Source of the DNA: Ruditapes philippinarum
Lineage: Eukaryota
Direction of reading: 5' to 3'
Length of the DNA: 64,000 nt
NCBI RefSeq assembly: GCF_026571515.1
Contig: NW_026859203.1
Location: 124,001 to 188,000, forward strand
Position numbers and translations under genes: made by a program. Under the pieces are notes generated by a model, which was given only the letters and a program-made list of their open reading frames with translations, was not told where the DNA came from and made no database searches. Below, one piece after another: positions 35,344-63,780 of the stretch. Position 1 is the stretch's first letter, and each line of letters starts with the position of its first letter.

Positions 35344-35516
35344 TGTCGGGAATTGCGCTCATATGCATGTGCCGTTAAATGACGCCAACGTATGCGTGAC
35401 GTTAGAGTACGTCACTTCCTATGTTTTGTAGTATAGCGTTAGTAGTTTTGAATAGACGTATAAACCAGACACAACGTGTTGTACATTATTATCGTAGTAT
35501 AATACCCTATCCGACA
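35344..35516 (+). repeat. 5' LTR of Bel/Pao element
   Basis: TG...CA ends; identical to 40967-41139. Confidence 0.97.
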
Positions 35517-35517
35517 T

Positions 35518-35530
35518 TGGTGCCGTGACT
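35518..35530 (+). promoter_or_regulatory. Primer-binding site complementary to tRNA-His 3' end
   Basis: TGGTGCCGTGACT one base after the LTR is the complement of the eukaryotic tRNA-His end ...AGUCACGGCACCA. Confidence 0.85.
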
Positions 35531-35535
35531 AAAAC

Positions 35536-38500
35536 ATGAAGATAGATAAATTGCGATCAGTCAGAGAGGGACAGCGAAGATGTATCGAAATAAAGCTTGA
35601 ACGGATTGAACGAGCGAAAGATAACTCATCAATGATAGAATTTAACGCAATTCTTGAAGCCATAATCAGTGGAGCAGAGACAATTAATTCCTTAAACGAA
35701 AAGATTATAGAACTGACGGAAGTAACGGATATCGAGGAGGAAATAATAAGCAGTGAAGAATATGGATTGACGCTGGAAATAAAGGTGAGAGAACTTCAAG
35801 CCTATAGCAAAGCAACTAACCCGCAAATCCAGATGGAGGACAGAAGTGGTTCTTCAATCGAAAATAATAACGTGAATAATGGTAACAGTTCTTTGCAAAA
35901 TGTGAGTACATTTCATTCAAATACGTCGCTTTATCAGAGACTGCCGAATTTATCGCTACCTGTATTTAGTGGTGACATTCTCGAATGGCAAAGTTTTTGG
36001 GATGCTTTTGATTCCTCTGTTCATCAAAACCCGAATCTTACAGAAGTACAAAAATTTAATTATTTGAAGACGCAACTAGAAGGCAGTGCGGCTCAAGTTA
36101 TTCAAGGATTTGCACTTACGCATGCAAATTACATTCAAGCAGTCGATTTACTGAAGGAGAGGTTCGGACAGAGTCATAAAATCATTCATGCGTATATACA
36201 GGCGTTACTAAACCTGCCAGCCCCAAGCAATACTCTACACAGTATGAGAAACTATTACGACAAATTAGAAGCTTATATTCGCGGATTGGAATCGCTAGGT
36301 CAGTGTCAAAATACGTACGGAACTCTTTTAGTACCAGTCATTATAGACAAACTTCCGGCAGAAATTCGCAAGAGTTTAGCACGAGAAAATGGCAGCGATA
36401 AGTGGTCATTAGAAAGTTTACGAAAAGCGTTATATCGTGAACTGAATATCATGGAGGCCGGACAGACTACAGATGATTTAGCTGGTTATAGAACTACAGC
36501 GTCGTTTTTCACGGGCGCTAGACGGAAACCGGAAGCCGGAAGTCACGTGATACACAGACGGATGCACAAAACGCTTATTGATCAGAGAAAGTGTATTTAC
36601 TGCAATCACCATGCTAACGATTGCACAAAGTTAATTGATGTGAGGGTTAAAAAGGACATAATAAGAAAGAAGCATTTATGTTTTAATTGTTTGAAAAATC
36701 ACCAAGTAATTAACTGCCGATCACACTTCAGATGCTTGAAATGTAAAAGAAAACACCATACTAGTATATGTGAAAATTGTCCAGATTCAAGGCCGAAAAT
36801 AAATACTTGCCCGACAAACCTACCTTCAACCGGAAGTGATACCTCCACTCAAATACAGGCAACAGTTTTACACTCAAGATCCGAAACCCGACCAGACGTT
36901 TTATTAAAAACAGCTGTCGCTCAAGTATGTTCTGAGACACAGTTCGCGCAGGCAAACATTCTTTTTGATGAAGGGGCACAGCGATCCTTTATTTCTGAAA
37001 AACTAGCCAAAAGATTAAAGGTTCAGCCACGTGGAAGCAGTGCCATTAGTTTGGCAGCATTTGGAGATTCATCGCAGAAACTACGACATTTAGACACTAC
37101 GACCATATATCTACTGACCGATGCAGGTGACAATTTACCCCTGGAAGTTATGATCGTCCCCACAATCGCCGTCCCACTACGTCACATTCCCCAGTCCGTG
37201 ACGTCGTTACCCCACCTAAGAAAATTAAAATTAGCACATCCAGTCATAAATGAAGACAGTTTTGAAATATCGTTATTGATCGGAGCTGACCAGTACTGGA
37301 ATATCGTAGGAAACGAGACGATTCGAGGAGATGGTCCTACAGCAGTTAGTTCTAGTATTGGATACTTACTGTCTGGTCCGGTTCAAGCGCATGGACCAAG
37401 GAATCAGAGTTATTTAGTTATGAATGTAATGAGTACAGATATTGACAGATTTTGGAAACTTGAGTCCCTAGGAATAAACCCCGCAGAAGACGATTATACT
37501 GACACATTAGAGATATACAAACAAAACTGTGTAAAGTTTACAGACGGTAAATATGAAGCCAAACTCCCATGGAAAGAGGATCACGACACTCTCCCGACAA
37601 ATTACGACGTGACAAAAAGAAGAACAGAATCTTTGATTAAACGCCTCCGCCGAGACCCAAGTATCTTACAGAAATACGCAGAGATAATACAAGAACAAGA
37701 ACAACGAGGTTTCATAGAAAAGGTTGACGAGAACGAGGAAATATCGACCCAAGTGCATTATATACCCCATCATGCAGTCAAGAAAGATTCAACTACGACT
37801 CCAATTCGATTGTGTATGACTGCAGTTGCCGTGAATCAGCTAATAAACCTAGTTTGAACGACTGCCTTGATTCTACCCCACCCATAATGAATGACTTATC
37901 ACACATAATGGTTCGGTTTAGACTTGAGAAATATGCAATCTCAACTGACATAGAAAAGGCTTTTCTCAATGTACGATTACATAAAGATGACAGAGACGTA
38001 ACCAGATTCCTTTGGTTGAGCAACCCGGATAATGCTGACAGCCCGCTAACAACATATAGATTTAAATCAGTCCTATTTGGTGCCACATGCTCACCGTTTA
38101 TACTCAGCGCTACATTACTCAAACATCTAGACATGAACGCTACCAGCTGGGTCAGTAAAATCTTGAAGCGAGACCTATACGTAGACAACATATTATCAAG
38201 TTTTCGCACAGAAGAGGAAGTTTTAAGGTATTTCCGAGATACAAGAGACCTAATGTTACAAGGAGGCTTTAACTTGAGGTCATGGGCATCTAATAATCGC
38301 CGGCTGCAAGCAACCGCTACAGAAGAAGGTGTTCTTGACAACAATAAGGTAACGAAAGTGTTAGGCATGTTATGGTATACAGAAACAGACGAGATATCAT
38401 ACCCAGATAGAGACATTCCTATTTTTGATAATGTGACTAAACGAGCTATTTTACAGTACACATCGAGAGTATATGACCCACTTGGCTTACTTAGTCCGAT

Positions 38501-40742
38501 ATTGATACGTGCAAAAATTTTGCTACAAGAATTGTGGAAAGAGAAGTTGCCATGGGATACAATTTTACCTGATAATATCCAGCAAAAATGGCGCCAACTT
38601 GCACGTGATATCAACACTGTACAAAATACAAGATTCTCCAGACATATATTTTGTTCATCGGTAGCAGACGACAAATGCTTAACAACAGAAGACACAGTAC
38701 TACATGTTTTTGTTGATTCCAGTATCCAAGCTTATGGTGCAGTAGCATACTTGTGCAGAAAACATGAATCAAAACTCATTTTTGCAAAATCACGCGTTGC
38801 ACCGTTGAAGAAACTCAGTTTACCCAAGTTGGAGCTTATGGCTGCAGTAATAGGCGCTCGTATAGCAAATCATCTACAACAAGCTATGGAAGTACAGGAA
38901 ATTATATTTTGGTCAGACAGCCAAATCGTACTACATTGGTTGAACACAACAAAAACCATGAAGAGATTCATACAGAATAGAGTAAATGAAATCCGAGAAC
39001 TAACATTGAACCGGAAGTGGAAATACTGTCCTACCCAACAAAATCCAGCTGATCTTATTACGCGAGGCATAACAGCAATCCAGTACAAAGACAACAAATT
39101 ATGGATGAATGGTCCAAACTGGTTAAACTCTCCGAACCAGTGGCCACTTTGGGAAAAGTTAGAGGCTATTACCATGACGACCGTATCTAATGAGACCATA
39201 GAAACCGAAGAACCACCTTTGGATAATAACGATATATCCAACACACCTGAAGATGGCTTACACAATGTCATAAATATTTATAGATACAGCAGTTATAAAA
39301 AGGTAGTTAGAATTACAGCATTTGTAATGAGATTTATACACAATTGTATGATACAACGTGAATCAAGAACAACGGGCCCAATCACCGTACAAGAACTATT
39401 TAAAGCTAAAATGAAGCTGATTCAACATTGCCAGTATAATACTTACAAAGAAGTGATAAACAATTTGAAATCTGGTAAATCACGACTTCCATTGGTACGA
39501 CAGTTACGACTTTACCTAGACCAAGATGGTTATATCAGATGTGGTGGTAGAATACACAATGCACCTATAGATGAAAATACAAAATTCCCTATTTTACTGC
39601 CAGCCAAACATCCTCTGACACGACTAATCATACTTGATGCACATGAAAAACAACTTCATTCCGGAATTAGTGCTACTATATGCCACATACGACAGACATT
39701 TTGGATTCCTGTGATACGACAATGTGTAAAATCACAACTCAGAAAATGTACGACTTGTCGTAAAGTAAATTCTAAACCCTACATTGTACCAGATCCACCA
39801 CCGTTACCAGCATTCAGAGTTGAAAGCTCACCACCATTCACAGTTACAGGTTTAGATTTCAGTGGAGCACTTTATGTCCGAGAAGAAACCGGTAGGGAGT
39901 CAAAGGCTTATGTATGCTTGTTTACATGCGCATCCACCCGAGCTGTACACATAGAACTCGTGCATGACCTTTCAGAAGACACATTTATGCAAGCATTTCG
40001 GCGATTTGTTAGCAGACGGTCACTGCCTAGACTCATAATATCTGACAACGCAACGACATTCCAAGCAGCATCGAACACTTTAAAGTCCTTGTTAGAATCA
40101 CAAACATTGAAGGAACAGCTTGGCTTTAAAGGAACTGAGTGGCGATTTATACCAAAACGGGCCCCGTGGTTTGGTGGATGGTGGGAGAGAATGATTGGAC
40201 TTGTTAAGACAGCTTTAAAGAAAGTACTTGGTCGATCATTCGTTACGTTCGTAGTTCTGCAGACGATACTTACCGAGATTGAAGCCATTCTCAACGACCG
40301 ACCACTTACTTACGTAACGTCAGATACGTTAGATCCAGAACCGCTTACTCCTTCACACTTACTCCATGGTCGGAGGTTAACAGAATTACCTGACAACATC
40401 GACACACAGAAGGTAATATGTACCAGTAGTTCCATAACAAAACGATTTCGAGTTCAGCGTGTGTTAGTTAACAAATTTTGGAAAAAATGGAAATTTGATT
40501 ATCTGACTTCATTACGTGAACGACATACAAAGAGTGGTCATAACGAGCAGACGATACGCGTTGGTGACGTAGTACAGGTGCACGAGGAATGTCCTAGAAT
40601 ACGTTGGAAACTTGCCGTGGTAGACGAATTGATGCCCGGTCGCGATGGATTGATCAGAGCAGCAAAGATTCGTACCGGAAGTGATCATACAACAAGACCC
40701 ATTGCTAAACTTTATCCGTTAGAGATAAATGAGAAAGAGTAA
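35536..40742 (+). CDS. Bel/Pao gag-pol polyprotein, split by one 1-nt deletion near 37810
   Basis: DUF1759-like gag (LPVFSGDILEWQSFWDAF), three Cys/His knuckles, protease LFDEGAQRSF, RT (YIPHH, DIEKAF, LFGATCSP, YVDN), RNase H/Pao A17 (HVFVDSS..AYG, LPKLEL, WSDSQ, NPADL), integrase H2C2 and DDE (LDFSG, SDNA, WWERM). Confidence 0.95.
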
Positions 40743-40966
40743 ATCGATAAACATTATAGGCAGTCAAATTGATAAAATTTCATTAATATCGCGAACATAG
40801 ACTATAAACTTTTATGAGATATATTGATTATGAGTGAGAGAGACATTTGCGTTATTTTAAAACAATGACTTTTATTTAAATGTATTTTAGAAAAGAGTTA
40901 TTTATAAGATTTGATGAAATTAACTGATATTAATTTTAAAAATTTATCATTTTGCGGCCCCCAGAA

Positions 40967-41139
40967 TGTCGGGAATTGCGCTCATATGCATGTGCCGTTA
41001 AATGACGCCAACGTATGCGTGACGTTAGAGTACGTCACTTCCTATGTTTTGTAGTATAGCGTTAGTAGTTTTGAATAGACGTATAAACCAGACACAACGT
41101 GTTGTACATTATTATCGTAGTATAATACCCTATCCGACA
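40967..41139 (+). repeat. 3' LTR of Bel/Pao element
   Basis: Identical to the 5' LTR; followed by TSD ATACC. Confidence 0.97.
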
Positions 41140-43425: not shown

Positions 43426-43515
43426 ATGATGGTATAGTGTTTGTATTATGACATGTCGTTTGAAAGTATTTTCGCGGATATTTTATATTTATAGTTTAAG
43501 AAAGAACTTGTAAGA

Positions 43516-46500
43516 ATGCAAGCCAGTATTGGAGGCGAGATCGTGACATTACATACAAACAGTTCAAGCACTGCTGACCTTGTAAACGAGCAAGTTCACA
43601 TTTCCAGGAAGGAGGTGATGTTGTTATATAATTATATAATATTTATTTTAAAGAATGCATACATCTTTAGAAGGAACATTGATCTATATTTCTGCATTTG
43701 ATACCCAACTGGCTTGTAATAAAGTAAGCGAGCTAAGATAATGTTGTACTAGGACACTACGTTAGAGGCACCATACTGATATCTTAAGTATTTTTTCCCT
43801 TTAAGGATATTGTATTTCAATCTTTCTTGGAGAAAAAAAACACTTATACTGTCAGTTCGGTATTCAGTATACTTAGTAGGTATCTTTAAAATATGCAGTC
43901 TACTTTATTAGAAATAATAACTGGAAGTTAGTTTTTAAATTGTCTATAAATTGTCTCTAAATATCAGAAAAGTGTTATCTGCTCTTAAGAATAATATATT
44001 GTTGTGTTACAGGAGAGCGAGAGACATTTTTGTTTATGTAATCTTGGAGATATAATTCACAAGTATCAACAAATGACGACACTAATACCGAGAGTTAAAC
44101 CTTTTTATGGTATGATTATAATGCATTTTACCCTCATTATCACATTTGTTTAGAAGAATTTGTTGGTAAGTCTAAGGCCACGCATTCATTCCGCATAACC
44201 ACCCACATTTCATAATTATTATAGTGAAACAGTTTGGTCAACAATATTCAAAATCACTTATCATGAATAAGTTAGACTTTGTCCACAAAGCTTTCTCGTT
44301 TGAACTGTCGGCTGGTATTTTTAAATATAAATACATATACAATAGTTTCTTGTTCTAGTAACATATAAAGTGATGAATGTTTTTGTTGTTGTTTTGTTTT
44401 AGCTGTAAAGTGCAATGAAGAATTACCAGTACTAAAGGTCCTCGCTGATCTGGGGGCATCATTTGACTGTGCTAGTAAGGTAACTCACGATCCATGCTGG
44501 ATTATCCTTGTGTATTTTAGGTTATCTTGGAATGCAAAATAATCAGACTTTTGTTTTTCAACAGAATCTAAATATTCACTTAAAAAACAAAGCTAATTGA
44601 TGAAAACTGCTCTACTTACAGCACAGGAGAACGACCCAATATACCTTATAGTTTCCAAAATGTCACACTTAATAGAACACAAGCTTAATTAATTGCTATA
44701 TGTACATTTTATAAGTAGGCTATATTTAACCCAACAATTTATTTCTCTTTTTCATTTCTAAAACATTTTTAATTCAGCACGAGATAGAAAAGGTTCTCAA
44801 TATTGGCGTAACACCAGCACGTGTCATATACGCACAGCCATGCAAGCAACCTTCAATGCTGAAGTTCGCGGAAACAGAAAGGTGTGGACAAGATGACGTT
44901 TGACAACGTGGAGGAACTGTATAAAGTTAAGAAGATATTTCCAACAGCTAGGTGGGGTTTAATACTTTTCATCATATGTCATTCATATATTTTGCCTAAA
45001 TTTGATGTCAGTCTATAATATATTTTATTTAGGACAGTCGCACTAATGATGATATATTTTCATGTTTACAGATTAGTTTTGAGAATAATGATAGACAGTG
45101 AGTATAAGGGGAACCAAGATTTCAGCAGTAAGTACGGGTGTCATCCATTGGACGTTCCCACAGTTCTCGAGACCGCAAAAGAACTAAACCTTAACGTCGT
45201 CGGTGTAAGGTAAAATGCGTCATATGTAGACTTGAAAGTATTGTTATATTATGTTATATTATGTTATATTTTCGATCCTTGAAGATCGTTCAGCACGACA
45301 TTATTGTTGTGCTTGTGGTATTTTTAGTTTCAACTTTTCGGCATTTTCTAGTTGGGTGGTTCCAATATTCCTACTTGAATAATGTTGAATCACCCTTAGG
45401 ATATGTTGCCTGCTTTTTAAATTTGTCTTTTGACGTCTTATCTGTGATACGCAGGCTTCATAACCTCTGATCCCCTTTCAAAATTCCATTTTATTTAGTT
45501 CCGCCCATTGTTTTCTCGTTTAGGGCACACGCTTTTTATTACTTGGGGACCATACGCCGCTTTTCATGGAATGGCACGTAAGTGTCACATTGAAGGTTCC
45601 ATGATAACCGCCGTATGAACACATCTGCGGATGTTTCTAAATTCAAAATTTTACTATTTCACGTTTAAATGTTGAATTCTACGTAAGCCGGTGCTAGGGG
45701 GCGTGGACGGTTACTTGCACTTTCCAGTACCGTCCATGAACAGGCTCAATCAAACCGAGCCTGCAACCTTTTCAATTTTGCAGTGTTGGGCTTTCTTTAG
45801 GGATTCTGTATTTTTCTATTTTATCAATATGCTTAAATAAACATGAACAAGATAGAGTTGAAAGTATGTGTGTGAAATTTTAACAAACGTCATAAAATTT
45901 GAAGGATTATTCAAGTGTAGGCCTACTGTCAACACTTGCCGATGGTAGTTAAACAATAAATCAAATACAGCAGAATTTAAACAAGTGAAGAAAAGCTACT
46001 AAGACTCGTGTATTTCCACATTTACTGAAGAATGAACATTATCTTTCAGTTTTCACGTTGGTAGCAACTGTTATGACTCTAGGGCATTTTCAGCAGCCAT
46101 ACAGCAATCAAGGCAGGTATTTGATACCGGGGCTGGTCTTGGCTTCAATATGACACTGCTTGACATAGGAGGTGGTTTCCCAGGTCAACTTGATACTGGT
46201 AGCACATTTCAGCAGGTACGAATTTAACGTGCATCTTGAGATGTCAAATATCAACATCATTATTTTTATGCAACATTTTATATGATTTAAATCAAGGGGT
46301 GCGGTGGCCTAGTGGTTAAAGTGTATGCCTCTCAACCCCTATTCAGGTCACGACCATGTTACTTTATATGACACCACAACTGGTTGGTTTCTGGAAGTGA
46401 ACAGATTAATAGAAGTTGCAAGAACTTGTTTCGCAATCGATCTCAAATAAACATGTTTAAACCAAACCATATAAATCTTCACTTTATATAAGAAATACGG

Positions 46501-48209
46501 GGACATAAAGCGTTTAATGTATTATTTGTTTTGTTTTTAAATCAGATAGCTGATGTTGTAAACTCCAGCTTAGATACACACTTTCCATATAAGGAAGGTT
46601 TGGAGGTTATAGCCGAGCCGGGACGCTACATGGTCGCATCCGCTTTTACTATTGGCGTCAACATCATAGCAAAACGTATTGTGCCGCATAGACCAAACAA
46701 ACAAGATAAAGGTATGTTGTAAATTGTAACACTGTCATATATCTGCAGACAAATCGTGAACGTAGCTTCTGAAAATTTAATCTTTGTCATACATTCAGCA
46801 GTGTTAAACAAATATAAATAAAAGGGCTTATCAAATACTTAAAAATGCTAGCTGGTAAGTTGATTTTGAAAAAAAGCAGGTGAATAGCATGACATTGTTG
46901 TAAGATCCAAAATTAAACTTCACAAAGTTTGATGTGCAATATTGTATGATTGATATCAATTCTAGTTTATATAATGCAGGGACTGGCATAAACAGAAATG
47001 ATCCGACTGTAAAGTCTATAATGTACTATGTGAATGACGGAGTTTACGGGTCATTCCTGGGTAAACTTGCAGATTACAGAAAATATGAGGCAAAATCTTT
47101 AAAGGTAGGAATAACATTATAACTGTCTGTACTGTCATGTTGAGCAAGATTAACAGAATTTCAGTTCTACCCAAGCCGACATTAACTTAATACTCGAGCC
47201 GTACTGACCAGTTTTCCACAGTAAACTGCAAATTCATATTAAGCAAATAACCAATAAAAATAAGTAGTGTCGGGCATTCGAACTCCCTACTCTGAAGTTC
47301 TTAAACCTTATATACGCTCGGACTACTAAGGTAAGATGACGGACTAAGCAACCCTTCTCTTTCCAAACAACACTGATACAGTGACTGTAGACTTACAAGT
47401 TAACAAGACATTGTCTATCACTGGCCAAGGACAAGAACTTAGAAAATGCTGTATGCTACTAATGGTTTTATTTCGTTTTCAGCTTAAATAAACATATTCA
47501 TAACTTTATATTAAGAATAAACAGAACATGATAAAGAGGTATGTCTGTTATACTAAGTTTTAGACAGTGTTATACTATGTTGTAGACTGAGGTAGCTGCT
47601 GTCATGTATGAAAGTAGTATCTGGGGACCTTCATGTGACAGTGTTGACTGTATTGTAGACTCTACATTATTACCAGCACATGATGTTGGAGAATGGCTGT
47701 ATTTCCCCGACATGGGCGCATACACCTTGTCATCACACACAAACTTCAATGGAATGGAAGAGCCTAAACTAATCTATTACTGTCAAACAGACATTTGGTA
47801 TTTACTCTACAAAAATATATATCCCCCTGTTTAGTTATATTATATAAGTGCTCATTTAAAAAAAAATTGTTCGAAATGAAGTAAAAATCATTTCCAGTTT
47901 TACATTTAAACTTGTTTCACATTCCGAAAGTAAGACAACAATTAAGGACACATATCTTATCTCTGGTGTAAATTCTAGCACATACAGTCAGACGTGAATT
48001 AAGTGACCGCATGTACATATATGTCTGTCAATATAGAATCAGTTATTATGCCATTAGCTTTAATACTATCAATGAACTAAAACCGCATGAGTGTAAACAT
48101 TTTTTAATTTTTTTTTAAAAGTGAGTAATGCTTTGAATGTATATATTTCAGGAATCAGTTATACAGTGAGAAGTCTTGCCAGTATAATGGACCAAATAAT
48201 ACAACATAA
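43516..48209 (+). CDS. ODC-like: Ornithine decarboxylase-like PLP enzyme, copy A (one +1 indel in exon 4)
   Basis: Exons 43516-43614, 44013-44109, 44403-44479, 44778-44951, 45072-45209, 46050-46215, 46546-46711, 46980-47104, 47586-47797, 48152-48209. Motifs PFYAVKCN (PLP lysine), [50 protein letters not shown]. Extra A at ~44873 (GCGGAAACAG vs GCGGAACAG in copy B). Last exon less certain. Confidence 0.88.
45245..45818. other. ~575-bp segment in ODC copy A intron 5, absent from copy B
   Basis: Copy B reads GAAAGTATTG|TTTTATCAATATGC contiguously at ~59440; the segment starts with (TTATATTATG)3. Confidence 0.75.
46295..46470 (+). mobile_element. Degenerate tRNA-derived SINE (also at 59935-60132)
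   Basis: A box GGTGGCCTAGTGG; the copy B version retains a B box GGGTTCGACCC; (AAACC) tail. Confidence 0.65.
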
Positions 48210-49464: not shown

Positions 49465-49930
49465 AATGGGAGAATAGGAAGCAATTTTTATAATTATCAC
49501 ATAACTTTAAACTTAATATACTTCTGTATTTCTTGACAGCACTGATAATTAACTCGTAGTAAATAAAGTTTTATTTTAATACTTGATCTTGCTTGCAATT
49601 CATTCCATTCGAGGAAAGTACCATTCACATTCATAATAACTTTGATAAACCCTTATACTTTTATCATACCATGTTTTTATGAAAATAGGTTTTCTATCCA
49701 TCAAAATATATTGGTTATAGAACAGGGGCATTTCTTACATTTCCATAGAAATAATCGGTATTTTTTCTAAAAATTCTTCATAAGCACCTAAAACATCTTT
49801 CCAAAATGAATTTTTCAAAATATTATATATATATTCTTTATATAACTTTCGACAATTAAACAGCTTCTTAATATCTAAAAAGTTATCTAAAATAGTGTAA
49901 CATTTATCACATTCAGATGATACAATTCTT
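49465..49930 (-). mobile_element. Duplicated fragment of the L1/Tx1-like LINE, cut at the duplication junction
   Basis: Matches 62171-62640 and stops abruptly at 49930. Confidence 0.8.
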
Positions 49931-50388
49931 TAAATCTTCCTTATTTTAAATATGTGTGTCACAGGGTGAGAAATTTTTTTAAACCGTAACATGTGCTATA
50001 TAGAATGTTATTTATTCGTGTAGATTCAATACTAAATTTATTGAACTCATTGAATACGTGCCTCTGGCGAGCATAATATGATTTTATTCCACTTGATCTA
50101 TAAATGTAGTATTAAATCTACACTCATTTGACATCTTCTATGTAGATCTAATTGCACAACGAATAATATATACAACGCATGTATGCCATGAAGATTAACG
50201 TGTGCAGGTATATATTGACATACTATCACTACACAAATATTTATCTTTGTTTGGCCTGTACATTTATACCCGCCTGTACACACAAACTTGAAATATTGAT
50301 TTGACGATTACCAATTTTTACTACTACACTTTAAGAAGCATATACATGCATACATTGTAAGTAATAACGTATCTGCGACATTTAAAAC

Positions 50389-52646: not shown

Positions 52647-53006
52647 TAGAACCGAAATTTCTTTATTTCATTATTCGGAATGTATTATTTTAATTATGTG
52701 TACTGTCTTAGCAATATGACAGTCACATACATGTTTTGGAAAGTTAATTAGTCTTTTCTTCAGGGTAATTTCAGATCTGAATGCAAGTTTATTCTAAATA
52801 AAATGTATATTTAAAACACAATGTAGTTTAAAAATGTCTTTTAGAAGCTTTAATTATTGACTCATATTTTTCAAAAGTTAAAAAGCCAGACATATTATTT
52901 TAGGTACAGAATAAAAATGTGCAATTTAAAATATACGACAAGAACTTGAAACTTGTCAACATTTTATTAAAGTACTTAAAGCTCTCTTGATATACTCATT
53001 CATAAA

Positions 53007-55155
53007 TCAAGCGTCTGGTGTGTCAAGATCAACTGATTCATGTGGTCTATTACAGCGGTAAACAGCAGCAAGTAAGAACAACATAGAAATGACGCCAAAA
53101 TACCCTCCATATACTGTAAACTGAAATATAAAGTATATGTGACTATGCTTGTGCTCTGAATAAGAAAATTTGTTGAACAACTTACAAAACATTTATAGTA
53201 TCACGGGGGAGGAACTGTTTCACGAAGGATGAAGTTCTTATGATAACTCCTTGCTCCTTCGTGTAACAGTTTCTCCTCCGTGAATATGTTACTCGAAAAT
53301 GTTTTCAACACTATTTCAGTCATAAAAATGAAAAAAGAATATTAACATCGATAGAGAATCACAATACACCTTCCATCTTTATCACTTTGGAGTTAGTTGA
53401 AATAAGAAACATGAAGTAAGGTTCACTCACCTGATCAACAACACCTGCTCCAAGCCCTGCTTTGTCTACCACTATAACAGTTAGTATGGACTCAAGAACC
53501 AGAGAAGCGAACATATTACATCCGAATGTTAACCCATACCTCTGTTTAACCAAACTCTGAGCAATTTGTGCCCTGAAAGACGCAGGTGAAGGTCAACATG
53601 TATTAACAAATATAAACAAGTGAATGTAGACCTAATTATTATGTGAGATGTGTATAATGTATTGTGGAAAAATTAACAAGTCATCTTATTTGAACGAATC
53701 ATAGAAAAATATAGTCGAGTTAAGAAGGCATGTACTTACGTTGCTATGGTAACGACTGTAACATAGGATGTGCGGAAGAGCACGTACATTGCATAAGCTA
53801 CCCAGATACTACTTGTGTGTGCCATTACAACAAGGAAGGCTGCATTTCCGGCACATACCAAACCCATAAACAACTCGGCCCGTCTTGACCAGTTGACTGG
53901 TACAAACCCAACAGTCAGGACAGTAATACTGCCTGAAAATAAGCAATATGCTTAGACGGTCGTAACAATTGACTGTTCTCATACTCAATTGCATTTTGGA
54001 GTTGGATTTATATTTACTCTTTCTTATCTATTAAAATATGAACATAATTATCAAAAAGGAAATGGATGTTCACAATAGTATTATGGCTTACTAATAATAC
54101 GTGTACAAGTACTAAAGTTTGGTTAGGAACTATAAGAACTTTGTCTTAATTCTATGTGATGACGGTAGATCATATATGTAAAAGTTACCAAGTAGTGTCG
54201 ATGCGGCTTCAACGGCCCCATTGTAAACATCTTGCTCTTCTCCCGGACTATCTTTGACTGATATAACTGCCCACAGATTCTGGACATAATTCAGAACTTG
54301 GAAGTTTCCACAGGATGCTATAGCCCACCACACAGACCACACTAATACAACCCTGTTCCTGTATACATCTCTTAGTTCGGACCACATAAAGACAAAGCCA
54401 TTTCTACACCTGTTACCTCCATCGTATACATTCATGGTACTTTTGTCTTTAACATGATCGTCAACACCTTCACTTTTCGTCCCACATTCTTGAATATTGG
54501 GACTTTTTGAAGTTTCAAAATTCGAATTATTTACATTACCATTGTTCTCATTTGGATCTTTAGCATATTTGTATTGTTTTCTATGAAATATTTCTGAATG
54601 TTTTGGCCAAGGCAATAATAACGGTATCACAAACGCGATGCAAACGCTGACAAATGAAAACACGTGAAGATCATAAAAGTCCATAACATGAAAAGAATAT
54701 AAAAACTGAGCCAGAAGAAAAGACAAGAATTTACCAACCAATGTAGCTGCTCGTGTAAAACTGGATATTTTCTTAAAGTGCTCTTTCGGCACTTCTACAT
54801 ACAAATATGAGTAATATGCTACTTCCCCGGCGGTAAATAGTCCATATAAAACTTCCACAAACTTCATAGCGACAACTCCCTGTGCCCAGAGTAAAAGAGC
54901 CCATGTTCCAATCGCAGCAGCACCGTCAATGATCAAAACTGGTTTGTACCGGAGAAAATCAGTGAGTAAGAAGACGGGTACTAGCCATATCAGATATGAA
55001 TATGTCCACCATGGGTATATCTCATTTGACACCTGCTCTATTGTAAGATTTTTCCATTCACCTGTCAGGTATAATGTGAGAAACGCCTCTGACGGTCGCA
55101 TCTCTTTTACAAATCCAAAACTACATAATAACGCCGTTAACAGCTCCCAGTTCAT
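53007..55155 (-). CDS. SLC19A: SLC19-family (thiamine transporter / reduced folate carrier-like) transporter, intact, ~471 aa
   Basis: Minus-strand exons 55155-54189, 53932-53740, 53572-53431, 53120-53007 (1416 nt, GT-AG, in frame). Motifs [80 protein letters not shown]...RYGLTFGCNMF, QFTVYGGYF. Confidence 0.95.
53201..53285. repeat. Small palindromic element in SLC19 intron 3
   Basis: TCACGGGGGAGGAACTGTTTCACGAAGGA is inverted relative to TCCTTCGTGTAACAGTTTCTCCTCCGTGA. Confidence 0.75.
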
Positions 55156-56914
55156 TGTTTTGTTCTAATGCATTAGAATCTAAAATAATTGTAATATACA
55201 CAACTCGCCTATCTAAACATTAACCTTTTCCACAGTGCACATTGCTTGCAGTTTAAGCTTTTAACAATACCAAACGAGCGACTTTCACCAATAAAACTTT
55301 TATTTTATTTATTTTATTTAGATAAGAAACAGTAGCAATCGTTTATCTGATGAACCTGTGCGTAGCCTTTTAAATCAAAGCACTGAAAGTACTATGGATC
55401 AGCAAATAATTATAGATACGAAATAATTAAATGGTTGGAATGGTTTGCAGAAAATAATTATTTTAAACAAAGGAAGGCGAATATGTATGGGAGAAAAGGA
55501 AATGCAAAGAATAAGTTTTGTGCATATATGCATTGTCATTATAGATTTGGAACTCTCATTTTCACATGTCTTTTAGCTGTATGTGCGTCTTCTTGCTATA
55601 TACCACTCATAATAGCCATTTGCTATCAACACTCGACATATTGGCAGTAAAACATATTTGTAAAACAAAGAGTCAAATAGAAAAATGTTGATACGTGGAT
55701 GAAATATCTTCCCAATAAAATCAATTGTCTTTGGTTATGTGTACATCATACATTATTCTTGCATAAAAAACTGCGCGTTAACATTACATCAACGGAGAAG
55801 AAAACATAAATAAACGAATATTTTAATCACGAGAACCTGTGTCGTTGTGACACGTGTTTTAATATATGTGACACAGGGCGCCTTGTGAATTAGCTGGAAT
55901 AAGTTACCGAAACAGGCGTAATCACATTTTTTTCATGCATTAACATCTGCAGAAGCCTTTGGACTCATGAAATTCCCCACCCTGCGACCTCGAACTTTGC
56001 GTGCGTCCTCGTGTTTTTGTAGATGTTAATGCACGAAAAACGTGCATTAACCCTCAATTATTATTATTTAAGTATAAAAAGGCCGAAAGTTGCGGTAGGG
56101 GACATAATCAGGTTTATTTTATATGATGTGGCTGAATAATATGGTGATATTATGTCTACTATTATTTTTAATTTAGTTAAATTTGATTATTTAAACAAAG
56201 ACATTTATTACCAAAAATAACTTTATTGAGAAAAGCAAATAATGTATGCCTAAATTTTTAAATGTTATAGAGCTACGCACTTGAATCACCCATATATCCT
56301 GGTTAGCTGGGTTCTGATTAAGTTTATTAAATGGGACAAACATGCGTTAATACAAACATTATGCATCTTAAGACTTTAAAAGTGATAGAAACGCAGGAAT
56401 GCTATGTCAATAGCTGCAAGTCTTGTAGATCTACTATTGTAACGTGAAATTTGATCATTTATAATGGCCAATCAGAATTAGTCAAACGAGAAACACGTTT
56501 TATTTTTTCTTACGCAGATAAAACTTTGCATTGTGCATTTATCAGTAACGTTTAAAGTATGTTGGTTTCTTGTAGTTCTCTTGATTCAAATTAGTCTTAA
56601 AATTCCGGATTTAACATCCGTGTTAACGTAAGTAGTGTTGACAAAGTTAATATAAATACGTAAAATTTTGTCATGACTTAAAATGCAATTTGTCGGGCAT
56701 ATTTATATAGATCTAAGTGAATACATGTCAAAACGAAAGTAGCAAATGTCAGATATAGAGTGTACAGTACGTTCCAAGTTTATGATAAACATGAAGCATA
56801 ATTGATATGCAGTAAGATTTTGTCGTTGATATATCAGATAAATATACTAAATTTTGAGGTCATTTTACTTTGTTGAGTACAGATGGACGAGACGCAAGCT
56901 GAGTCTAATATAGG

Positions 56915-57650
56915 TCTATGTCATGTTTTGTATAGTGGCTGTGTTATATTATGTCTTATATAGTGGTAGTTATGTCATGTCTTGTTTAGTGAGTGTTTTA
57001 TGTCATGTCTAATATAGTGTCAGTTCTATAATGTCATGTTTATAAAATGACAGTTCTATGTCATGTTTTACATAGTGACAGTTCTATGTCATGTTTTATG
57101 TAGTGACAGTTCTTTGTCATGTCTTATATAGTGGCTGTTTCATGTCATTTTTTAAAGTGGAAGTTTTATGTCATGTCTTATATAATGGCTGTTTATGTCA
57201 TGGCTCACACAGTGACAGTTCTAGGTCATGTCTCATATTATGGCTGTTTTATGTCATGTCTTATAAAGTGACAGTTCTTTGTCATGTTTTATAAAGTGAC
57301 AGTTCTATGTCATGCTTATATAGTGAGAGTTATATGTCATGTTTAAAATATAGTGGTTGTGTTATGTTATGTTAGTTATTTAGTGCATGTTTTATGTCAT
57401 GTCTTATACGGTGACAGTTTTATGTCATGTTTTATTATAATGACAGCTCTATGTCATGTTTTACATAGTGACAGTCGATTAGAGTGGCTGTGTTATTTCA
57501 TACCTTATATAGTGGCTGTTTTATGTTGTGTCTTATATAGGTGCAGTTTTATGTCATGTCTTATATAATGGCTGATGTGTGTCATGTTTAATATAGTTAC
57601 AGTTTTATGACATGCTTTATATAGTGGCTGTTTGATGTCATGTCTTATAT
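56915..57650. repeat. Minisatellite, ~28 bp unit, copy B
   Basis: Paralog of the 42615-43425 array with a different unit order. Confidence 0.92.
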
Positions 57651-57712
57651 GTGATGGTATAGGCAAGCCGTTTAAAGTATTTTTGGGGATATTTTATATT
57701 TATAGTATAAGA

Positions 57713-60700
57713 ATGCAAGCCAGTATTGAAGGTGAGATTGTGACATTACATACACACAGTTCAAGCACTGCTGACCTTGTAAACGAGCAAGTTAACATTG
57801 CCAGGAAGGAGGTGATGTTGTTATATAATTATATAATATTAATTTTTAAGATTTATTTTATTTATTTGCTTACATCTATAGACGGAACATTGATCTATAT
57901 TTCTGCCTTTGATACCAGTCTGGCTTATAATGAAGTAAGCGAGCTTAGGTAATGTTGTACTAGCTAGGACACTACGTTAGAGGCACCATACTGATACCGT
58001 AACTATTTTTTCCCTTTAAGGGTATTGTATTTCAACCTTTCTCTGAGAAAAAAAATCACTTATACTGTCAGTTCGATATTCAGTATACTAAGTAGTTATC
58101 TTTCAAATATGCTGTCTACTTTATTAGGTTTAATAACTTAAGTAAATTGTCTATAAATTGTCTCGAAATATCAGAAAATTGTTACGTGCACTTAAGAATA
58201 ATATATTGTTGTATTACAGGAGAGCGAGAAACATTTCTGTTTATGTAATCTTGGAGATATAATTCACAAGTACCAACGATGGACGACACTTTTACCGAGA
58301 GTTAAACCTTTTTATGGTATGATTATAATGAATTTTACCCTCATTAACACATTTGTTTAGAAGAATTCGTTGGTAAGTCTAAGGCCACGCATTCACTTCC
58401 GCATAGCCACCCACATTCCATGTCATACAGTGAAACATTTTGGTCAACAATATACAAAATATCTTATCATGAATAAGTTAGACTTTGTTTCAACGAAGGA
58501 ACACAAGTTTGAAAAGTCGGCTAATGTGTTAAAATATAAATACATATACAATAGTTTCTTGTTCTAGTATCATGTAAAGTGATGAATGTTTGTGTTGTTG
58601 TTTTGTTTTAGCTGTAAAGTGCAATGAAGAATTACCAGTACTGAAGGTCCTCGCTGATCTGGGGGCATCATTTGACTGTGCTTGTAAGGTAACTCACGAT
58701 CCATCCTGGATTATCCTTGTGTATTTTAGGTTATCATGGATTGAAAGCAAAATACATCAGATTTTTGTTTTTCAACATAATCTAAATATCCACTTAAGAA
58801 AACGAAGCAAATTGATGAATACTACTTTACATTCAGCTTAGGAGAACAGCTCAATAAGCCTTGCAGTTTTCAAAATGCCATATCTTTAAAGAATACAAGC
58901 TTAATGTATTACTATATGTACATTGTATTAGCAGAACAACTTTTCTCTTTTTCATTTCTTAAACTATTTTAATTCAGCACGAGATAGAAAAGGTTCTCAA
59001 TATTGGCGTAACACCAGCACGTGTCATATACGCACAGCCATGCAAGCAACCTTCAATGCTGAAGTTCGCGGAACAGAAAGGTGTGGACAAAATGACGTTT
59101 GACAACGTGGAGGAACTGTATAAAGTTAAGAAGATATTTCCAACAGCCAGGTGGGGTTTAATACTTTTCATCATATGTCATTCATATATTAGGCTAAATT
59201 TGAGGTCAGTCTATTATATGTTTTATTTAGGACAGTCGGATTAATGATGATATCTTTTTATATTTACAGATTAGTTTTAAGGATAATGATAGACAGTGAG
59301 TATAAGGGGAATCAAGATTTCAGCAGTAAGTACGGGTGTCATCCATTGGACGTTCCCACTGTTCTCGAGACTGCGAAAGAACTAAACCTTAACGTCGTTG
59401 GTGTTAGGTAAAATGCATCATATATAGACTTGAAAGTATTGTTTTATCAATATGCTTAAATAAACATGAACGAAATAGAGTTGAAAAGTATGTGTGTGAA
59501 ATTTTAACAAAAGTTGTAAAATTTGAAGGATTTTTGATAACATATTCAAGTGTAGGCCGGCCTACTGTCAACACTTAACGGGAGTAGTTAAAAATGTTAA
59601 GCAATAAATCAAATACAGCAGAATTTAAACAAGTGAAGACAAGCTATCAAGTGTCATGCGTTTCAACTTTTACTGAAAAATGAGCATTATCTTTCAGTTT
59701 TCACGTTGGTAGCAACTGTTATGACTCTAGGGCATTTTCAGCAGCCATACAGCAATCAAGGCAGGTATTTGATACCGGGGCTGGTCTTGGCTTCAATATG
59801 ACACTGCTTGACATAGGAGGTGGTTTCCCAGGTCAACTTGATACTGGTACAAAATTTCAACAGGTACGTATTTAACGCGCACCTCGAGATGTCAAATATC
59901 AACCTGATTATAACATTTTATGTATAAGCCAAGAGTAGCGGTGGCCTAGTTATTAAAGTGTATGCCTCTCAACCCAGCGTTCATGGGTTCGACCCTTTAT
60001 CAGGTCAAGACCATGTTACTTTATATGACACCACTACTGGTTGGTTTCTGGAAGTGGGCTCAAAAGTGATTAGTAGAAGTTGCAAGAACTTGTTTCGCAA
60101 TCGATCTTAAATAAATATGTTTAAACCAAACCATATAAATCTTGACTTTATATAAGAAATACTGGAACATAAATTGTTTCCTGCTTTAAATATTTGATAT
60201 ATATTGAGAAAACTACATGCAAATGTATTATTTGTTTTGTTTTTAAATTAGATAGCTGATGTTGTAAACTCCAGCTTAGATACACACTTTCCTTGCAATG
60301 AAGGTTTGGAGATTATAGCCGAGCCGGGACGCTACATGGTCGCATCCGCTTTTACTATTGGCGTCAACATCATAGCAAAACGTATTGTGTCACACAGACC
60401 AAACAAACAAGATAAAGGTATGTTGTAAATTGTAACACTATCATAATAATAAATATTATACATGTATCCGCAGACACATCGTAAAAATTGCTTCTGATAA
60501 TTCAATCTTTGTCACACATTCAGCAATGTTAAACAAATATAAATAAGAGGGCTTGTCAAATACTTAAACGCTAACTGATAAGTTTATTTTGAAAACAAGC
60601 AAGTATTATATAAGAGGTGAATAGCATGTCAGTGTTGTAAGATCCAAAATTAAACTTCACAAAGTTTGTTGTGCAATATTGTATAACTGATATCAATTCT

Positions 60701-61945
60701 ACTTTATATAATGCAGGGACTGGCATAAACAGAAATGACCCGACTGTAAAGTCTATAATGTACTATGTGAATGATGGAGTTTATGGGTCATTCCTAAGTA
60801 AACTTTCAGTGGACAGAAAATATGAGGCGAAATCTTTAAAGGTAGAAACATTATAACTTTCTAAGCGCAAATTAACATCACTTCAGTTTTAGGCCAGCCG
60901 ACATTAACTAATTCTCTACCCATATTGACCAGTTTCCTACTTCAAAAATCTGGAACAGTAGTGGATGGACACAAACTAACATTGGGCAAATATCCAATGA
61001 ATCAAGTAATGCCCGGGATTCGAACTCCCTACTTTAAAGTTCTTGAACCTCATATACACTCTGACTACTAAGGTAAAATGGCGAACTAAGCAACCCTTCT
61101 CTATCCAAACAACACTAATACAGTGACTGTTGACTTACAATGTAACAGGACATTGTCTATCACTGACCAAGGACAAGAACTTAGAAAATAATGCATGCTA
61201 CAAATTGTTTTATTTCGTTTTCAGCTTATATAAAAATATTCATAACTTTATATTAAGAATAAACAGAAAATGATAAAGAGGTATGTCTGTTATACTAAGT
61301 TTTAGACAGTGTTTTACTATGTTGTAGACAGACCAAGATGCTGCCTTGTATGAGAGTAGTGTATGGGGACCTTCATGTGACAGTGTTGACTGTATTGTAG
61401 ACTCTACATTATTACCAGCACATGATGTTGGAGAGTGGCTGTATTTCCCCGACATGGGGGCTTACACATTGTCATCACACACAAAATTCAATGGAATGGA
61501 AGAGCCTAAGCTAATCTATTACTGTCAAACCGACACTTGGTATTTATTCTACAAAATTCTATATCTCCCTGTTTAGTTCTAGTATATAACTGCTAATTTC
61601 TTAAATATTCCTTTCAAAATAAAGTTACTAGTTAAACAATTTCCAGTTTAACATTTCAACTTGTTTCACATTCCGAGACAACAATTAAGAATACATATCT
61701 CTGGTGTAAATTCTAGCACATACAGTCAGACGTGTATTAAGTGACCGCATGTACATATATGTCTGTCAATATAAAATAAGTTATTATGTCATTAGCTTTA
61801 ATACTTTCAATGAACTAATACCACTTGAGTAAAAACATTTTCAAAATTGTTTTAAAGTGGGTAATGCTTTTAATGTATATATTTCAGGAATCGGTTATAC
61901 AGTGAGAAGTCTTACCAGTATAATGGACCAAATAATACAACATAA
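57713..61945 (+). CDS. ODC-like: Ornithine decarboxylase-like PLP enzyme, copy B, intact, ~436 aa
   Basis: Exons 57713-57811, 58220-58316, 58612-58688, 58978-59150, 59270-59407, 59698-59863, 60252-60417, 60717-60841, 61328-61539, 61888-61945 (1311 nt, in frame). Same catalytic motifs as copy A; FDCAC instead of FDCAS. Confidence 0.92.
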
Positions 61946-62170
61946 GAGTTATATAGTCTCACAAGCATACTTTATGCTGTTGAAACATGTGTTAGTCTTG
62001 TCTGAAACAATTGCAAGTAACATGTATTTTATTCCAGTCAGATTGTATTATTTGAAAGCAAATGTTCTATTTAGTCTGACAAGTTGGAATATCATCATTT
62101 TTATGTATATATTGTACATGTCTGATGTACTTTTAACACAAAGTAGTATAGGCTTTATATAATAACATAT

Positions 62171-63780
62171 AATGGGAGAATAGGAAGCAATTTTTATACT
62201 TATCACATATTGACTTTAAACTTAATATACTTCTGTATTTCTTGACAGCACTGATAATTAATTGGTAGAAAGTAAAGTTTATTTTAATACCTGATCTTGC
62301 TTTCAATTCATTCCTTTCAAGGAAAGTACCATTCACATTCATAATAACTTTGATAAACCCTTATACTTTTATCATACCATGTTTTTATGAAAATAGGTTT
62401 TCTATCCATCAAAATATATTGGTTATAGAACAGGGGCATTTCTTACATTTCCATAGAAATAATCGGTATTTTTTCTAAAAATTCTTCATAAGCACCTAAA
62501 ACATCTTTCCAAAATGAATTTTTCAAAATATTATATATATATATTCTTTACATAACTTTCGACAATTAAACAGCTTCTTAATATCTAAAAAGTTATCTAA
62601 AATAGTGTAACATTTATCACATTCAGATGATACAATTCTTCTTAACCATGAAAATGTTTAACTTTTCATGTAAGCACATACATCAATCATTTTAGACCAC
62701 CATTTACATATTCCTTCACCAATACAGAAGATTTAATCTTTGGCGGACCTTGCCACACAAAATCATAAACATATTATTTCTGAGAATTAGGATTTGGAAG
62801 TGACATAAACAATTTAGTTAATAAAGGAAGTACCATTAGTTTTTTTTTCTAAAAAAGTAATGATTTTTGAAGTCTAGTTATATTTTTCAAGATTACAAAA
62901 AGTATTTAGTTGGTGTTTCACCATTATCAATCCATTCTGCTCTAGAGTGTATGAAATTACCTTTAATTTTGTCTTGTCTTATAGTTTCCAATTCTTTTTG
63001 CAAGTTTAATAATCTAATATTTCCAGCACCATTTGTATTTATTTCTAAATCTGTAATCTGTGATATTAAATCATCCTCTCTAGATTTGCTTTTCTTCTTA
63101 AAACTTGCATAAGAAATAGTTTTTCCTCTTATTTCTATTCACAGAGTTTCTAAAAATAACTGGTCATCAATAACAAATGATAGTTCATTATAGCTAAAAT
63201 TTTCAATAGTTTCTATATTACATACAGGTAAACAGTATTGTTTTTTTATTTTTTCAATGTTTTCATTAATAATATTCAAATATTCTTTATCATATAAAAG
63301 AGAGTTATTGAATTACCAGAGACCTTTACCATGAGTAACATTACTAAGATCTAAACTAAGTGTTACAATAGAATGATCTGATCTATAGCTAAGACCTACA
63401 TCACAACTCCTTACCTGAGGTAAAATATCCTCAATAATCAAAAAAAGAAATCTAACCTAGCCTGCTGTGTCGGACTTGTACAACGCCATGTATACTGTCT
63501 AATATCTTTATTACATTCTCTAAACGGGTCAAATAAATGTCAACTATTAATATTTTAAAGAAGTAAATTTCTAGCTTTCTTATTATTATCCATTGATTTA
63601 TAATTGTAATAATCAAGGTTAGTATTTAATACAAGATTGAAGTCACCACAACACATGTAGGAATCATTTTCTATAACATCAATAATTGGGGTATCTTGTG
63701 TGCAATCACAATCCTCTGTAAATCTTTGTTAGAATATTAATTTATAATCAACTTTTATTAAGGATATGTACTGCAAAATT
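62171..63780 (-). mobile_element. Degenerate L1/Tx1-like LINE ORF2 remnant
   Basis: Minus-strand APE endonuclease motifs CGDFNLVLN, YTWR, QARLDFF, SDHSIV, GKGLW*FNNSLL, then EIRGKTISYASFK and SRAEWIDNGETPTKYF, then post-RT LPLLTKLFMSLPNP and FVWQGPPKI; many stops and frameshifts. Confidence 0.85.

What the first reader, a model, noticed from the sequence alone, without database searches (positions are those of the whole stretch)
60794..60814. The two ODC-like paralogs differ sharply in the specificity element
Seen: copy A CTG GGT AAA CTT GCA GAT TAC (LGKLADY) versus copy B CTA AGT AAA CTT TCA GTG GAC (LSKLSVD): four replacements in six codons, while the rest of that exon differs only synonymously. 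The Asp aligned with ODC D332 becomes Val, with an Asp one position later. These are substitutions, so not the indel artefacts seen elsewhere. Inference: diversification of substrate specificity after duplication.
Basis: partly seen in the sequence, partly recalled or inferred. Interest (0 to 1): 0.7.

Follow-up and report, generated by a model that had tools for sequence, protein, structure and literature searches.

The report
Clam decarboxylase copy regains lost aspartate
The Manila clam has two 93%-identical neighbouring copies of a relative of the polyamine-making enzyme ornithine decarboxylase: one copy lacks the substrate-gripping aspartate, as its hard-clam counterpart does, and the other has likely regained it, so that copy is predicted to act on lysine or ornithine while the first likely does a different job.

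Summary
In detail: copy A (47057) reads LGKLADY and copy B (60794) LSKLSVD, with four replacements in six codons against 29 in 436 (P=5e-4 for this pre-defined helix; 0.05 as a gene-wide scan). B's version is spliced in RNA; A's stretch is matched by a short-read DNA contig.

The Mercenaria ortholog reads LSKLSVG, so Val332 is likely ancestral and A likely regained Asp332. A also gained Gly328; solved bacterial lysine/ornithine decarboxylases have this Gly+Asp pair, and 0 of 82 other non-canonical helices do. B's helix matches vertebrate antizyme inhibitor AZIN1 (ASKLSED) at 5 of 7 positions by convergence, yet B keeps the PLP-binding residues that AZIN1 lost. Silent divergence also peaks here, so this is an island of old divergence; local pN/pS is about 1, and positive selection is not proven.

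Best reading (0.45): A is a basic-amino-acid decarboxylase again, and B is an altered-substrate enzyme. Rivals: B is an antizyme-binding regulator, A is drifting, or A and B are alleles. No activity data exist, and no A-type exon-8 transcript was seen. New variant of a known kind.

The parts
60794..60814 (+). Copy B specificity helix LSKLSVD (ODC 327-333); likely ancestral state, 5 of 7 identical to vertebrate AZIN1 ASKLSED
   Evidence: spliced RNA contig identical over exon 8
47057..47077 (+). Copy A specificity helix LGKLADY; derived Gly328, Ala331, Asp332 and probably Tyr333
   Evidence: DNA contig in run X2
57713..61945 (+). ODC-like gene, copy B: 10 coding exons, 436 aa, intact frame, 19 of 20 key ODC residues (= XP_060602465)
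43516..48209 (+). ODC-like gene, copy A: 10 coding exons, 20 of 20 key ODC residues (= XP_060602460, flagged low quality); one extra base in exon 4 near 44872, probably a long-read error
   Evidence: contigs of runs X2 and X8 lack the extra base but may merge A and B
61331..61363 (+). Second replacement cluster, codons 349-359 ([24 protein letters not shown] at 47589-47621), the linker before the Cys360 loop; changes fall on both branches
61484..61486 (+). Codon 400 (ODC 396, beside Phe397): Lys in B and Mercenaria, Asn in A (47742-47744); A-derived
60842..61017 (+). 5' part of intron 8 (A about 47105-47280): the highest silent divergence in the gene, 36 of 150 columns against 283 of 2529 overall
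49928..49935 (.). Head-to-tail junction of the tandem duplication (unit 1 about 27945-49930, unit 2 about 49930-62640), with 3-bp microhomology CTT
54130..55164 (-). SLC19 (folate/thiamine carrier family) exon in unit 2; unit 1 keeps only a remnant of about 150 bp near 34699-34850
35344..41139 (+). Bel/Pao-type LTR retrotransposon inserted in unit 1, 2.4 kb upstream of copy A's start codon; 173-bp end repeats are identical

Best explanation
Copies A and B are tandem duplicates of a venerid-clam ODC-like gene; B likely keeps the lineage's ancestral non-ODC helix (no Asp332), and A likely regained Asp332 plus Gly328, so A is predicted to decarboxylate basic amino acids (lysine/ornithine) while B is predicted to act on a different, probably neutral, substrate. 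Shown: the sequences, the clustering, the outgroup state, the retained cofactor and catalytic residues, and the nesting of the clade in venerid/mactrid ODC1. Inferred mechanism: the helix at ODC 327-333 closes the back of the substrate pocket, and Asp332 with Asp361 binds the distal amine. With Val332, Lys329 and Lys396 the B pocket has lost that acid. A's two-base change Val to Asp, the Ser to Gly change and the loss of Lys396 restore an acidic, roomier pocket. The block holding these changes is older at silent sites than the rest of the gene, as expected if exchange between the copies homogenises the gene but selection keeps this block apart (inferred; the model is recalled from Teshima and Innan 2008, not read).
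For: Polarity: of 13 sites in residues 226-424 that Mercenaria polarises, 7 are A-derived and 6 B-derived; 3 of A's 7 fall in the 6 helix sites where B equals Mercenaria (P=0.0016), none of B's do. Residues 318-347 are 28 of 30 identical between B and Mercenaria against 136 of 197 for the whole half (P=0.001), so A changed a constrained segment. A has 20 of 20 and B 19 of 20 of the key residues listed in PMC5518511; AZIN1 has 15. Solved bacterial lysine/ornithine decarboxylases read SGLMFDD (2PLJ) and SGIMYDH (5GJM), i.e. Gly328+Asp332; 0 of 82 other non-canonical helices and 0 of 185 canonical ones have the pair. Outside codons 332-359 pN/pS is 0.18; replacements in the block exceed expectation even at the raised local silent rate (P=0.013 helix, 0.002 block). 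Role of the helix and of Asp332: PMC7857480, PMC11912471 (passages). Animal ODC paralogs with new substrates exist: Xenopus ODC2 lysine (PMC6738921), mouse Gm853 leucine (PMC6313458).
Against: No enzyme data. Local pN/pS is about 1.0 in the helix and 0.55 in the block, so positive selection is not shown. Polarity rests on one ortholog, whose model lacks the N-terminal half; the more distant P0019 supports Val332 only. Asp332 does not fix the substrate: mouse Gm853 keeps it and uses leucine (PMC5518511, PMC6313458). A lacks Tyr331; Y331S cut human ODC kcat from 225 to 40 per minute (PMC4139326). A also has Met for Trp55, which is Trp in all 101 canonical ODCs compared, and one extra base in exon 4. 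No A-type exon 8 was seen in RNA (4 runs laid; only X15 and one read of X24 cover exon 8). B's substrate is a guess from the pocket residues.
Confidence: 0.45

Rival explanations
1. B and its Mercenaria ortholog are an independently evolved antizyme-inhibitor-like regulator with little activity, and A is a young copy turned back into an enzyme.
For: B's exon 8 hits AZIN1 best in the PDB (27.8 bits against 21.1 for ODC). It matches ASKLSED at 5 of 7 and Mercenaria at 4 of 7; none of 82 other non-canonical helices exceeds 3. ODC Asn327 and Tyr331 are the two interface residues that AZIN replaces, and Y331S raised antizyme affinity from 508 to 277 nM (PMC6420652, passage); B has Ser331 and Leu327. 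The tree puts AZIN1 with vertebrate ODC and the clam clade with venerid/mactrid ODC1, so the match is convergent. The clam has an antizyme gene. Loss of Asp332 alone is read as inactivating for a Drosophila paralog (PMC3543441, section 19).
Against: B keeps Asp88, Ala111, Arg154, Arg277 and Tyr389, which AZIN1 lost. Only 3 of 53 AZIN1-derived sites are shared, all in this helix. B has Gln125 and Tyr140, not the Lys/Lys of AZIN1 (PMC5329145). Lys329 is older than this lineage (also in P0019 and P0124), Ser328 is common in canonical ODCs (30 of 185), and Asp333 is in B only, so the match is less improbable than 5 of 7 suggests. The comparison was made after seeing the data.
Confidence: 0.2
2. 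No functional change: A is a redundant copy under relaxed constraint or decaying, and the cluster is an old neutral block (for example, from a divergent haplotype).
For: A has Trp55 to Met and an extra base in exon 4. Its unit lost the SLC19 gene and carries a recent LTR element upstream. No A-type exon-8 transcript was seen. Silent divergence is raised in the same block. Divergent helices are the rule among non-canonical ODC paralogs (86 different ones). The gene-wide scan P for 4 in 6 codons is only 0.054.
Against: A is not faster than B in the half that can be polarised (7 against 6); pN/pS outside the block is 0.18. Replacements exceed the local silent rate under that constraint. The two-base change lands on the ODC consensus Asp (2 of 26 two-step destinations from GTG). 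The extra base is absent from short-read contigs, and the neighbouring esterase shows similar 1-nt breaks despite pN/pS near 0.2.
Confidence: 0.2
3. A and B are two divergent alleles of one locus placed in tandem by the assembler (or captured by a later duplication); the helix is a balanced polymorphism.
For: Contigs from other individuals mix A-type and B-type letters: X18 RNA has an A-type exon-9 start and a B-type rest; X15 RNA has B-type exons 7-9 and an A-type exon 10. Divergence is uneven along the unit, 2% at its end and 11% in ODC introns. A search with exon 8 finds only these two copies in the assembly. Single-copy read depth could not be measured.
Against: The junction is a clean head-to-tail join with 3-bp microhomology. 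Introns differ by 11% and dS is 0.14. SLC19 is deleted in one unit only. All 4 DNA runs laid (4 studies; chosen because they hold B) carry both types somewhere in the gene at similar contig depth. Mosaic contigs can also come from graph bubble popping or from gene conversion.
Confidence: 0.15

Closest known systems
Eukaryotic ornithine decarboxylase (fold III, PF02784+PF00278; human 1D7K/7S3F, T. brucei 1F3T; clam ODC1 XP_060559427)
   Same: Both domains; Lys69, Asp88, Arg154, His197, Gly235-237, Glu274, Arg277, Cys360, Asp361, Tyr389, Phe397 in A and B; Asp332 in A. 54% identical to clam ODC1.
   Different: Helix NCILYDH replaced by LGKLADY or LSKLSVD; no Tyr331 or His333; no Asp332 in B. A separate paralog clade, not the ODC1 ortholog.
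Vertebrate antizyme inhibitor 1 (AZIN1; 3BTN, 4ZGZ)
   Same: Helix ASKLSED against B LSKLSVD, 5 of 7, including Ser331 at the antizyme interface.
   Different: Not orthologous. B keeps the PLP-binding residues that AZIN1 lost and lacks Lys125/Lys140; only 3 of 53 AZIN1-derived sites are shared.
Lysine/ornithine decarboxylases (Vibrio 2PLJ, Selenomonas 5GJM; plant L/ODC; Xenopus ODC2)
   Same: Copy A has Gly328+Asp332 like both solved bacterial enzymes. Its aromatic residue at 333 recalls the plant His344Phe switch (PMC3481059, passage; that plant 344 equals ODC 333 is recalled, not checked).
   Different: Only 28% identical to a Vibrio L/ODC, so any likeness is convergent; A lacks the aromatic 331 that those enzymes keep; activity untested.
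Mouse leucine decarboxylase Gm853/ODCrp
   Same: An animal ODC paralog that keeps the catalytic residues and uses a neutral amino acid (PMC6313458, PMC5518511); a precedent for B's predicted role.
   Different: It keeps Asp332, whereas B has Val. Its sequence was not compared here.
Recurrently evolved ODC homologs lacking Asp332 (Drosophila Asp332Tyr, Aedes Asp332Arg)
   Same: One key residue lost and the rest kept, as in B (PMC3543441, section 19, citing Ivanov 2010, which was not held).
   Different: No case of a sister copy regaining the Asp was found in my searches.

Membership tests
Fold-III PLP decarboxylase (ODC/DAPDC family) | Barrel (PF02784) plus sheet (PF00278) domains | tested here: met
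   Both copies pass the Pfam cut-offs
Fold-III PLP decarboxylase (ODC/DAPDC family) | Schiff-base Lys69, PLP contacts (Asp88, Arg154, His197, Gly235-237, Glu274, Arg277, Tyr389) and Cys360 | tested here: met
   All present in A and B
Eukaryotic ODC (EC 4.1.1.17) | Asp332 and Asp361 for the distal amine, copy A | tested here: met
Eukaryotic ODC (EC 4.1.1.17) | Asp332, copy B | tested here: not met
   Val in B, in Mercenaria and in P0019
Eukaryotic ODC (EC 4.1.1.17) | Canonical helix N[C/S]xx[Y/F]DH with aromatic 331 | tested here: not met
   Ala331 in A, Ser331 in B; no Asn327 or His333
Eukaryotic ODC (EC 4.1.1.17) | Orthology to the ODC1 gene | tested here: not met
   Clam ODC1 is P0128 on another contig; A and B lie in a derived clade
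Eukaryotic ODC (EC 4.1.1.17) | Ornithine to putrescine activity as a homodimer | not testable with these tools
   needs an assay
Antizyme inhibitor (AZIN1 type) | Loss of PLP-binding residues (Asp88, Ala111, Arg154, Arg277, Tyr389) | tested here: not met
   All kept in A and B; lost in AZIN1 P0213
Antizyme inhibitor (AZIN1 type) | Affinity residues at ODC 327 and 331 (Ala, Ser) | tested here: inconclusive
   B has Leu327 and Ser331; A has Leu327 and Ala331 (PMC6420652)
Antizyme inhibitor (AZIN1 type) | Lys125 and Lys140 in the antizyme-binding element | tested here: not met
   Gln and Tyr in both copies (PMC5329145)
Antizyme inhibitor (AZIN1 type) | Orthology to vertebrate AZIN1 | tested here: not met
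   AZIN1 groups with vertebrate ODC (SH-aLRT 99); the clam clade groups with venerid/mactrid ODC1 (98) (quick tree)
Antizyme inhibitor (AZIN1 type) | Binds antizyme more tightly than ODC and lacks activity | not testable with these tools
   An antizyme gene is in the genome; no whole antizyme protein was held for a complex prediction
Lysine/ornithine decarboxylase (works-like claim for A) | Gly at ODC 328 with Asp at 332 | tested here: met
   2PLJ SGLMFDD, 5GJM SGIMYDH, A LGKLADY
Lysine/ornithine decarboxylase (works-like claim for A) | His replaced by an aromatic residue next to the Asp (plant type) | tested here: inconclusive
   A has Tyr333; the mapping of plant 344 to ODC 333 is recalled; 5GJM keeps His
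Lysine/ornithine decarboxylase (works-like claim for A) | Forms cadaverine and putrescine | not testable with these tools
   needs an assay
Leucine decarboxylase (Gm853 type) | Sequence orthology and leucine activity | not tested
   No Gm853 sequence was identified among the proteins held

The most novel reading that the evidence does not exclude
Venerid clams independently evolved an antizyme-inhibitor-like ODC paralog with the same SKLS helix as vertebrate AZIN1, and in the Manila clam one young tandem copy was switched back into a lysine/ornithine decarboxylase by regaining Asp332 and gaining Gly328: a regulator-to-enzyme reversion caught between two 93%-identical genes and held as an island of divergence against gene conversion.
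Probability: 0.15. Interest if true: 0.8.

Novelty: new variant of a known kind. Interest (0 to 1): 0.5.

Why it matters
ODC paralogs have repeatedly become regulators or changed substrate, but known pairs are too far apart to show which residues did it. Here two 93%-identical proteins differ at four helix positions that are pocket, dimer and antizyme contacts at once, and an outgroup gives the direction. A four-residue swap tests directly whether this helix alone toggles substrate choice or antizyme binding, and whether a lost substrate-binding Asp can be regained. It would also name an enzyme for an unknown biogenic amine in a farmed clam. If both copies behave alike, this is one more divergent ODC paralog of ordinary interest.

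Tried and rejected
Indel or long-read artefact: rejected. Gene conversion from clam ODC1 or paralog C as the source of A's Asp: rejected, the codons and neighbours do not match. Horizontal transfer from, or orthology with, vertebrate AZIN1: rejected. Register shift with Asp333 replacing Asp332 in B: disfavoured, Mercenaria has Gly there; the AlphaFold monomer of B (17-row alignment) had pLDDT under 50 at residues 325-338 and could not test it, so no fold search was run. The variability-weighted null is not used for the helix, because the 101 'canonical' rows were chosen by that very motif. Run X8 has no cover over A's exon 8, but it also has none over most of exons 5 and 6, so the hole says nothing. 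RNA runs X18 and X20 do not cover exon 8; their small shares say nothing about it. Searches for more orthologs gave only Mercenaria and the distant P0019, so no codon-site model could be fitted; no Mercenaria DNA was held. The careful tree did not finish; both trees are quick ones, and the first 50 residues of the Mercenaria model were left out as mis-predicted. No complex prediction was run: dimers would pass by likeness, and no whole clam antizyme was held. Papers not held: Lee 2007, Deng 2010, Ivanov 2010, Bunsupa 2012 and 2016, Wu 2015. PMC4889967 and PMC7671201 added nothing. No supplements were opened.

Full report
What is there. The window holds a head-to-tail duplication (unit 1 about 27945-49930, unit 2 about 49930-62640) of a carboxylesterase, an SLC19 carrier and an ODC-like gene. 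Both ODC-like copies have 10 coding exons with GT-AG introns and match NCBI proteins labelled Ruditapes philippinarum: A = P0005, B = P0126. The junction is clean, with 3-bp microhomology. Unit 1 has lost most of its SLC19 copy and gained a Pao-type LTR element. An exon-9 search finds six ODC-family loci in the genome: the ordinary ODC1 (NCILFDH), A, B, a third paralog 24 kb downstream (TDVIIVP) and two on another contig, each with its own helix.

The observation. It is exact. A and B differ at 29 of 436 residues, with dS 0.14 and dN 0.032. Four replacements in the 7-codon helix have P=4.9e-4 if the helix is named in advance and 0.054 as a 6-codon scan. A second cluster at codons 349-354 makes 10 of 29 in codons 333-359 (scan P=2e-4). 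A spliced RNA contig matches B's exon 8 with no difference (X15). A short-read DNA contig spans A's exon 8 with 3 differences in 317 bases (X2; possibly the assembly's own sample), and A-type intron-8 letters appear as loose ends in another study's run (X4).

Direction. The Mercenaria ortholog reads [19 protein letters not shown] and has Lys at ODC 396. In residues 226-424 it polarises 13 of the differences: 7 on A's branch, 6 on B's. Three of A's seven lie in the helix (Ser to Gly, Ser to Ala, Val to Asp) and one is Lys400Asn beside Phe397; none of B's lies in the helix. B and Mercenaria share 28 of 30 residues around the helix against 136 of 197 overall. So Val332 is likely ancestral, the segment is constrained in this lineage, and A changed it. 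This rests on one close ortholog; three word-based searches and one profile search found no other.

What the helix does. In this fold a 3-10 'specificity helix' closes the back of the pocket and carries the Asp that binds basic substrates (PMC7857480, passages); Asp332 and Asp361 bind the distal amine in ODC (PMC11912471, PMC3543441, passages). The same residues lie at the dimer interface (PMC4139326, passages) and touch antizyme (PMC4595762, passages). Of the 20 key residues listed in PMC5518511 (passage), A has 20, B 19 and AZIN1 15, so both copies are predicted to bind PLP.

Two convergences. First, A's Gly328+Asp332 is the pair in the solved bacterial lysine/ornithine decarboxylases 2PLJ and 5GJM; none of 82 other non-canonical or 185 canonical helices held has it. 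Tyr333 recalls the plant His344Phe switch to lysine (PMC3481059, passage; position mapping recalled). Second, B's helix matches vertebrate AZIN1 at 5 of 7, where 82 controls reach at most 3. Positions 327 and 331 are the ones known to raise antizyme affinity (PMC6420652, passage). The tree shows separate origins, and the likeness is confined to the helix (3 of 53 AZIN1-derived sites). Both comparisons were made after seeing the data, and parts of the AZIN1 match are older or common residues.

Evolutionary signal. Silent divergence also peaks here: 36 of the first 150 columns of intron 8 differ against 283 of 2529 in all introns (intron 3 is second at 16%), and pS is 0.31 in codons 332-359 against 0.12 outside (small counts, P 0.02-0.05). 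Local pN/pS is therefore about 1 in the helix, not above 1. Replacements still exceed what the gene's constraint predicts at that local rate (P=0.013 and 0.002). Contigs from other clams mix A-type and B-type letters. Together this fits exchange between the copies with this block kept apart, but it also fits old alleles, and contig mosaics can be graph artefacts.

Against the reading. No assay exists. No A-type exon 8 was seen in the 4 RNA runs laid, of which only X15 and one X24 read cover that exon. A has Met for a Trp kept in all 101 canonical ODCs compared and an extra base in exon 4, absent from short-read contigs that may merge the copies. A lacks Tyr331, which costs human ODC about 80% of kcat (PMC4139326). 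Mouse Gm853 keeps Asp332 and uses leucine (PMC5518511, PMC6313458, passages), so Asp332 does not guarantee a basic substrate. Single-copy depth was not measured, so allelism is not excluded.

Verdict. Best explanation 0.45; regulator reading for B 0.2; drift 0.2; alleles 0.15. Remodelled helices in ODC paralogs are common: Mytilus, Solemya, Gigantopelta, Dreissena and unionids each have their own. What stands out is the likely regain of Asp332 between near-identical copies and the AZIN1-like ancestral helix. Three literature searches (listings only) showed no paper on these clam paralogs; most subscription journals are not covered. New variant of a known kind; interest 0.5.

Noticed in passing
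window 35344-41139: Full-length-looking Bel/Pao LTR retrotransposon (ORFs 35533-37857 and 37728-40742, overlapping in different frames; identical 173-bp end repeats), so a recent insertion upstream of copy A.
   Followed up: partly
window 34492-34850 against 53171-55164: The SLC19 carrier gene is almost wholly deleted in duplication unit 1 and present in unit 2.
   Followed up: partly
window 29764-32046 and 50386-52646: Duplicated carboxylesterase: unit 1 has an open 521-aa exon, unit 2 has several 1-nt breaks although pN/pS is about 0.2; probably long-read errors.
   Followed up: partly
L010-L011 (G000:C7690 about 203500-209100): Third ODC-like paralog, ortholog of Mercenaria P0054, helix TDVIIVP; the Mercenaria protein has Ser277 and Cys361. 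Its accession is next to that of the A/B ortholog, so the cluster is probably older than the split.
   Followed up: partly
L014-L015 (G000:C3138 about 171000-190000): Two further ODC-like genes tail to tail, with helices VFGHLYK and VDCCLCR and altered Cys360 loops (GFTLAPGD; GFAPFD), so likely non-catalytic or with very different chemistry.
   Followed up: no
proteins, tree: Mytilus, Solemya, Gigantopelta, Dreissena, unionids and venerids each duplicated ODC1 on their own and remodelled the same helix; an undescribed-looking recurrent expansion in molluscs.
   Followed up: partly
window 45158-45830: About 550-bp high-copy repeat inserted in intron 5 of copy A only; very many contigs lay on it.
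   Followed up: no
window 42615-43430 and 56900-57655: A degenerate tandem repeat of about 28 bp lies directly upstream of the start codon in both copies.
   Followed up: no
window 58680-58682 (codon 90): Copy B has Cys at ODC Ser91 (FDCACK), Ser in all 101 canonical ODCs compared and in A; both copies have Gln for Asn112 and Asn for Gly201.
   Followed up: no
L016 (G000:C9800): Exons of the clam antizyme gene (PF02100 match over the cut-off).
   Followed up: partly
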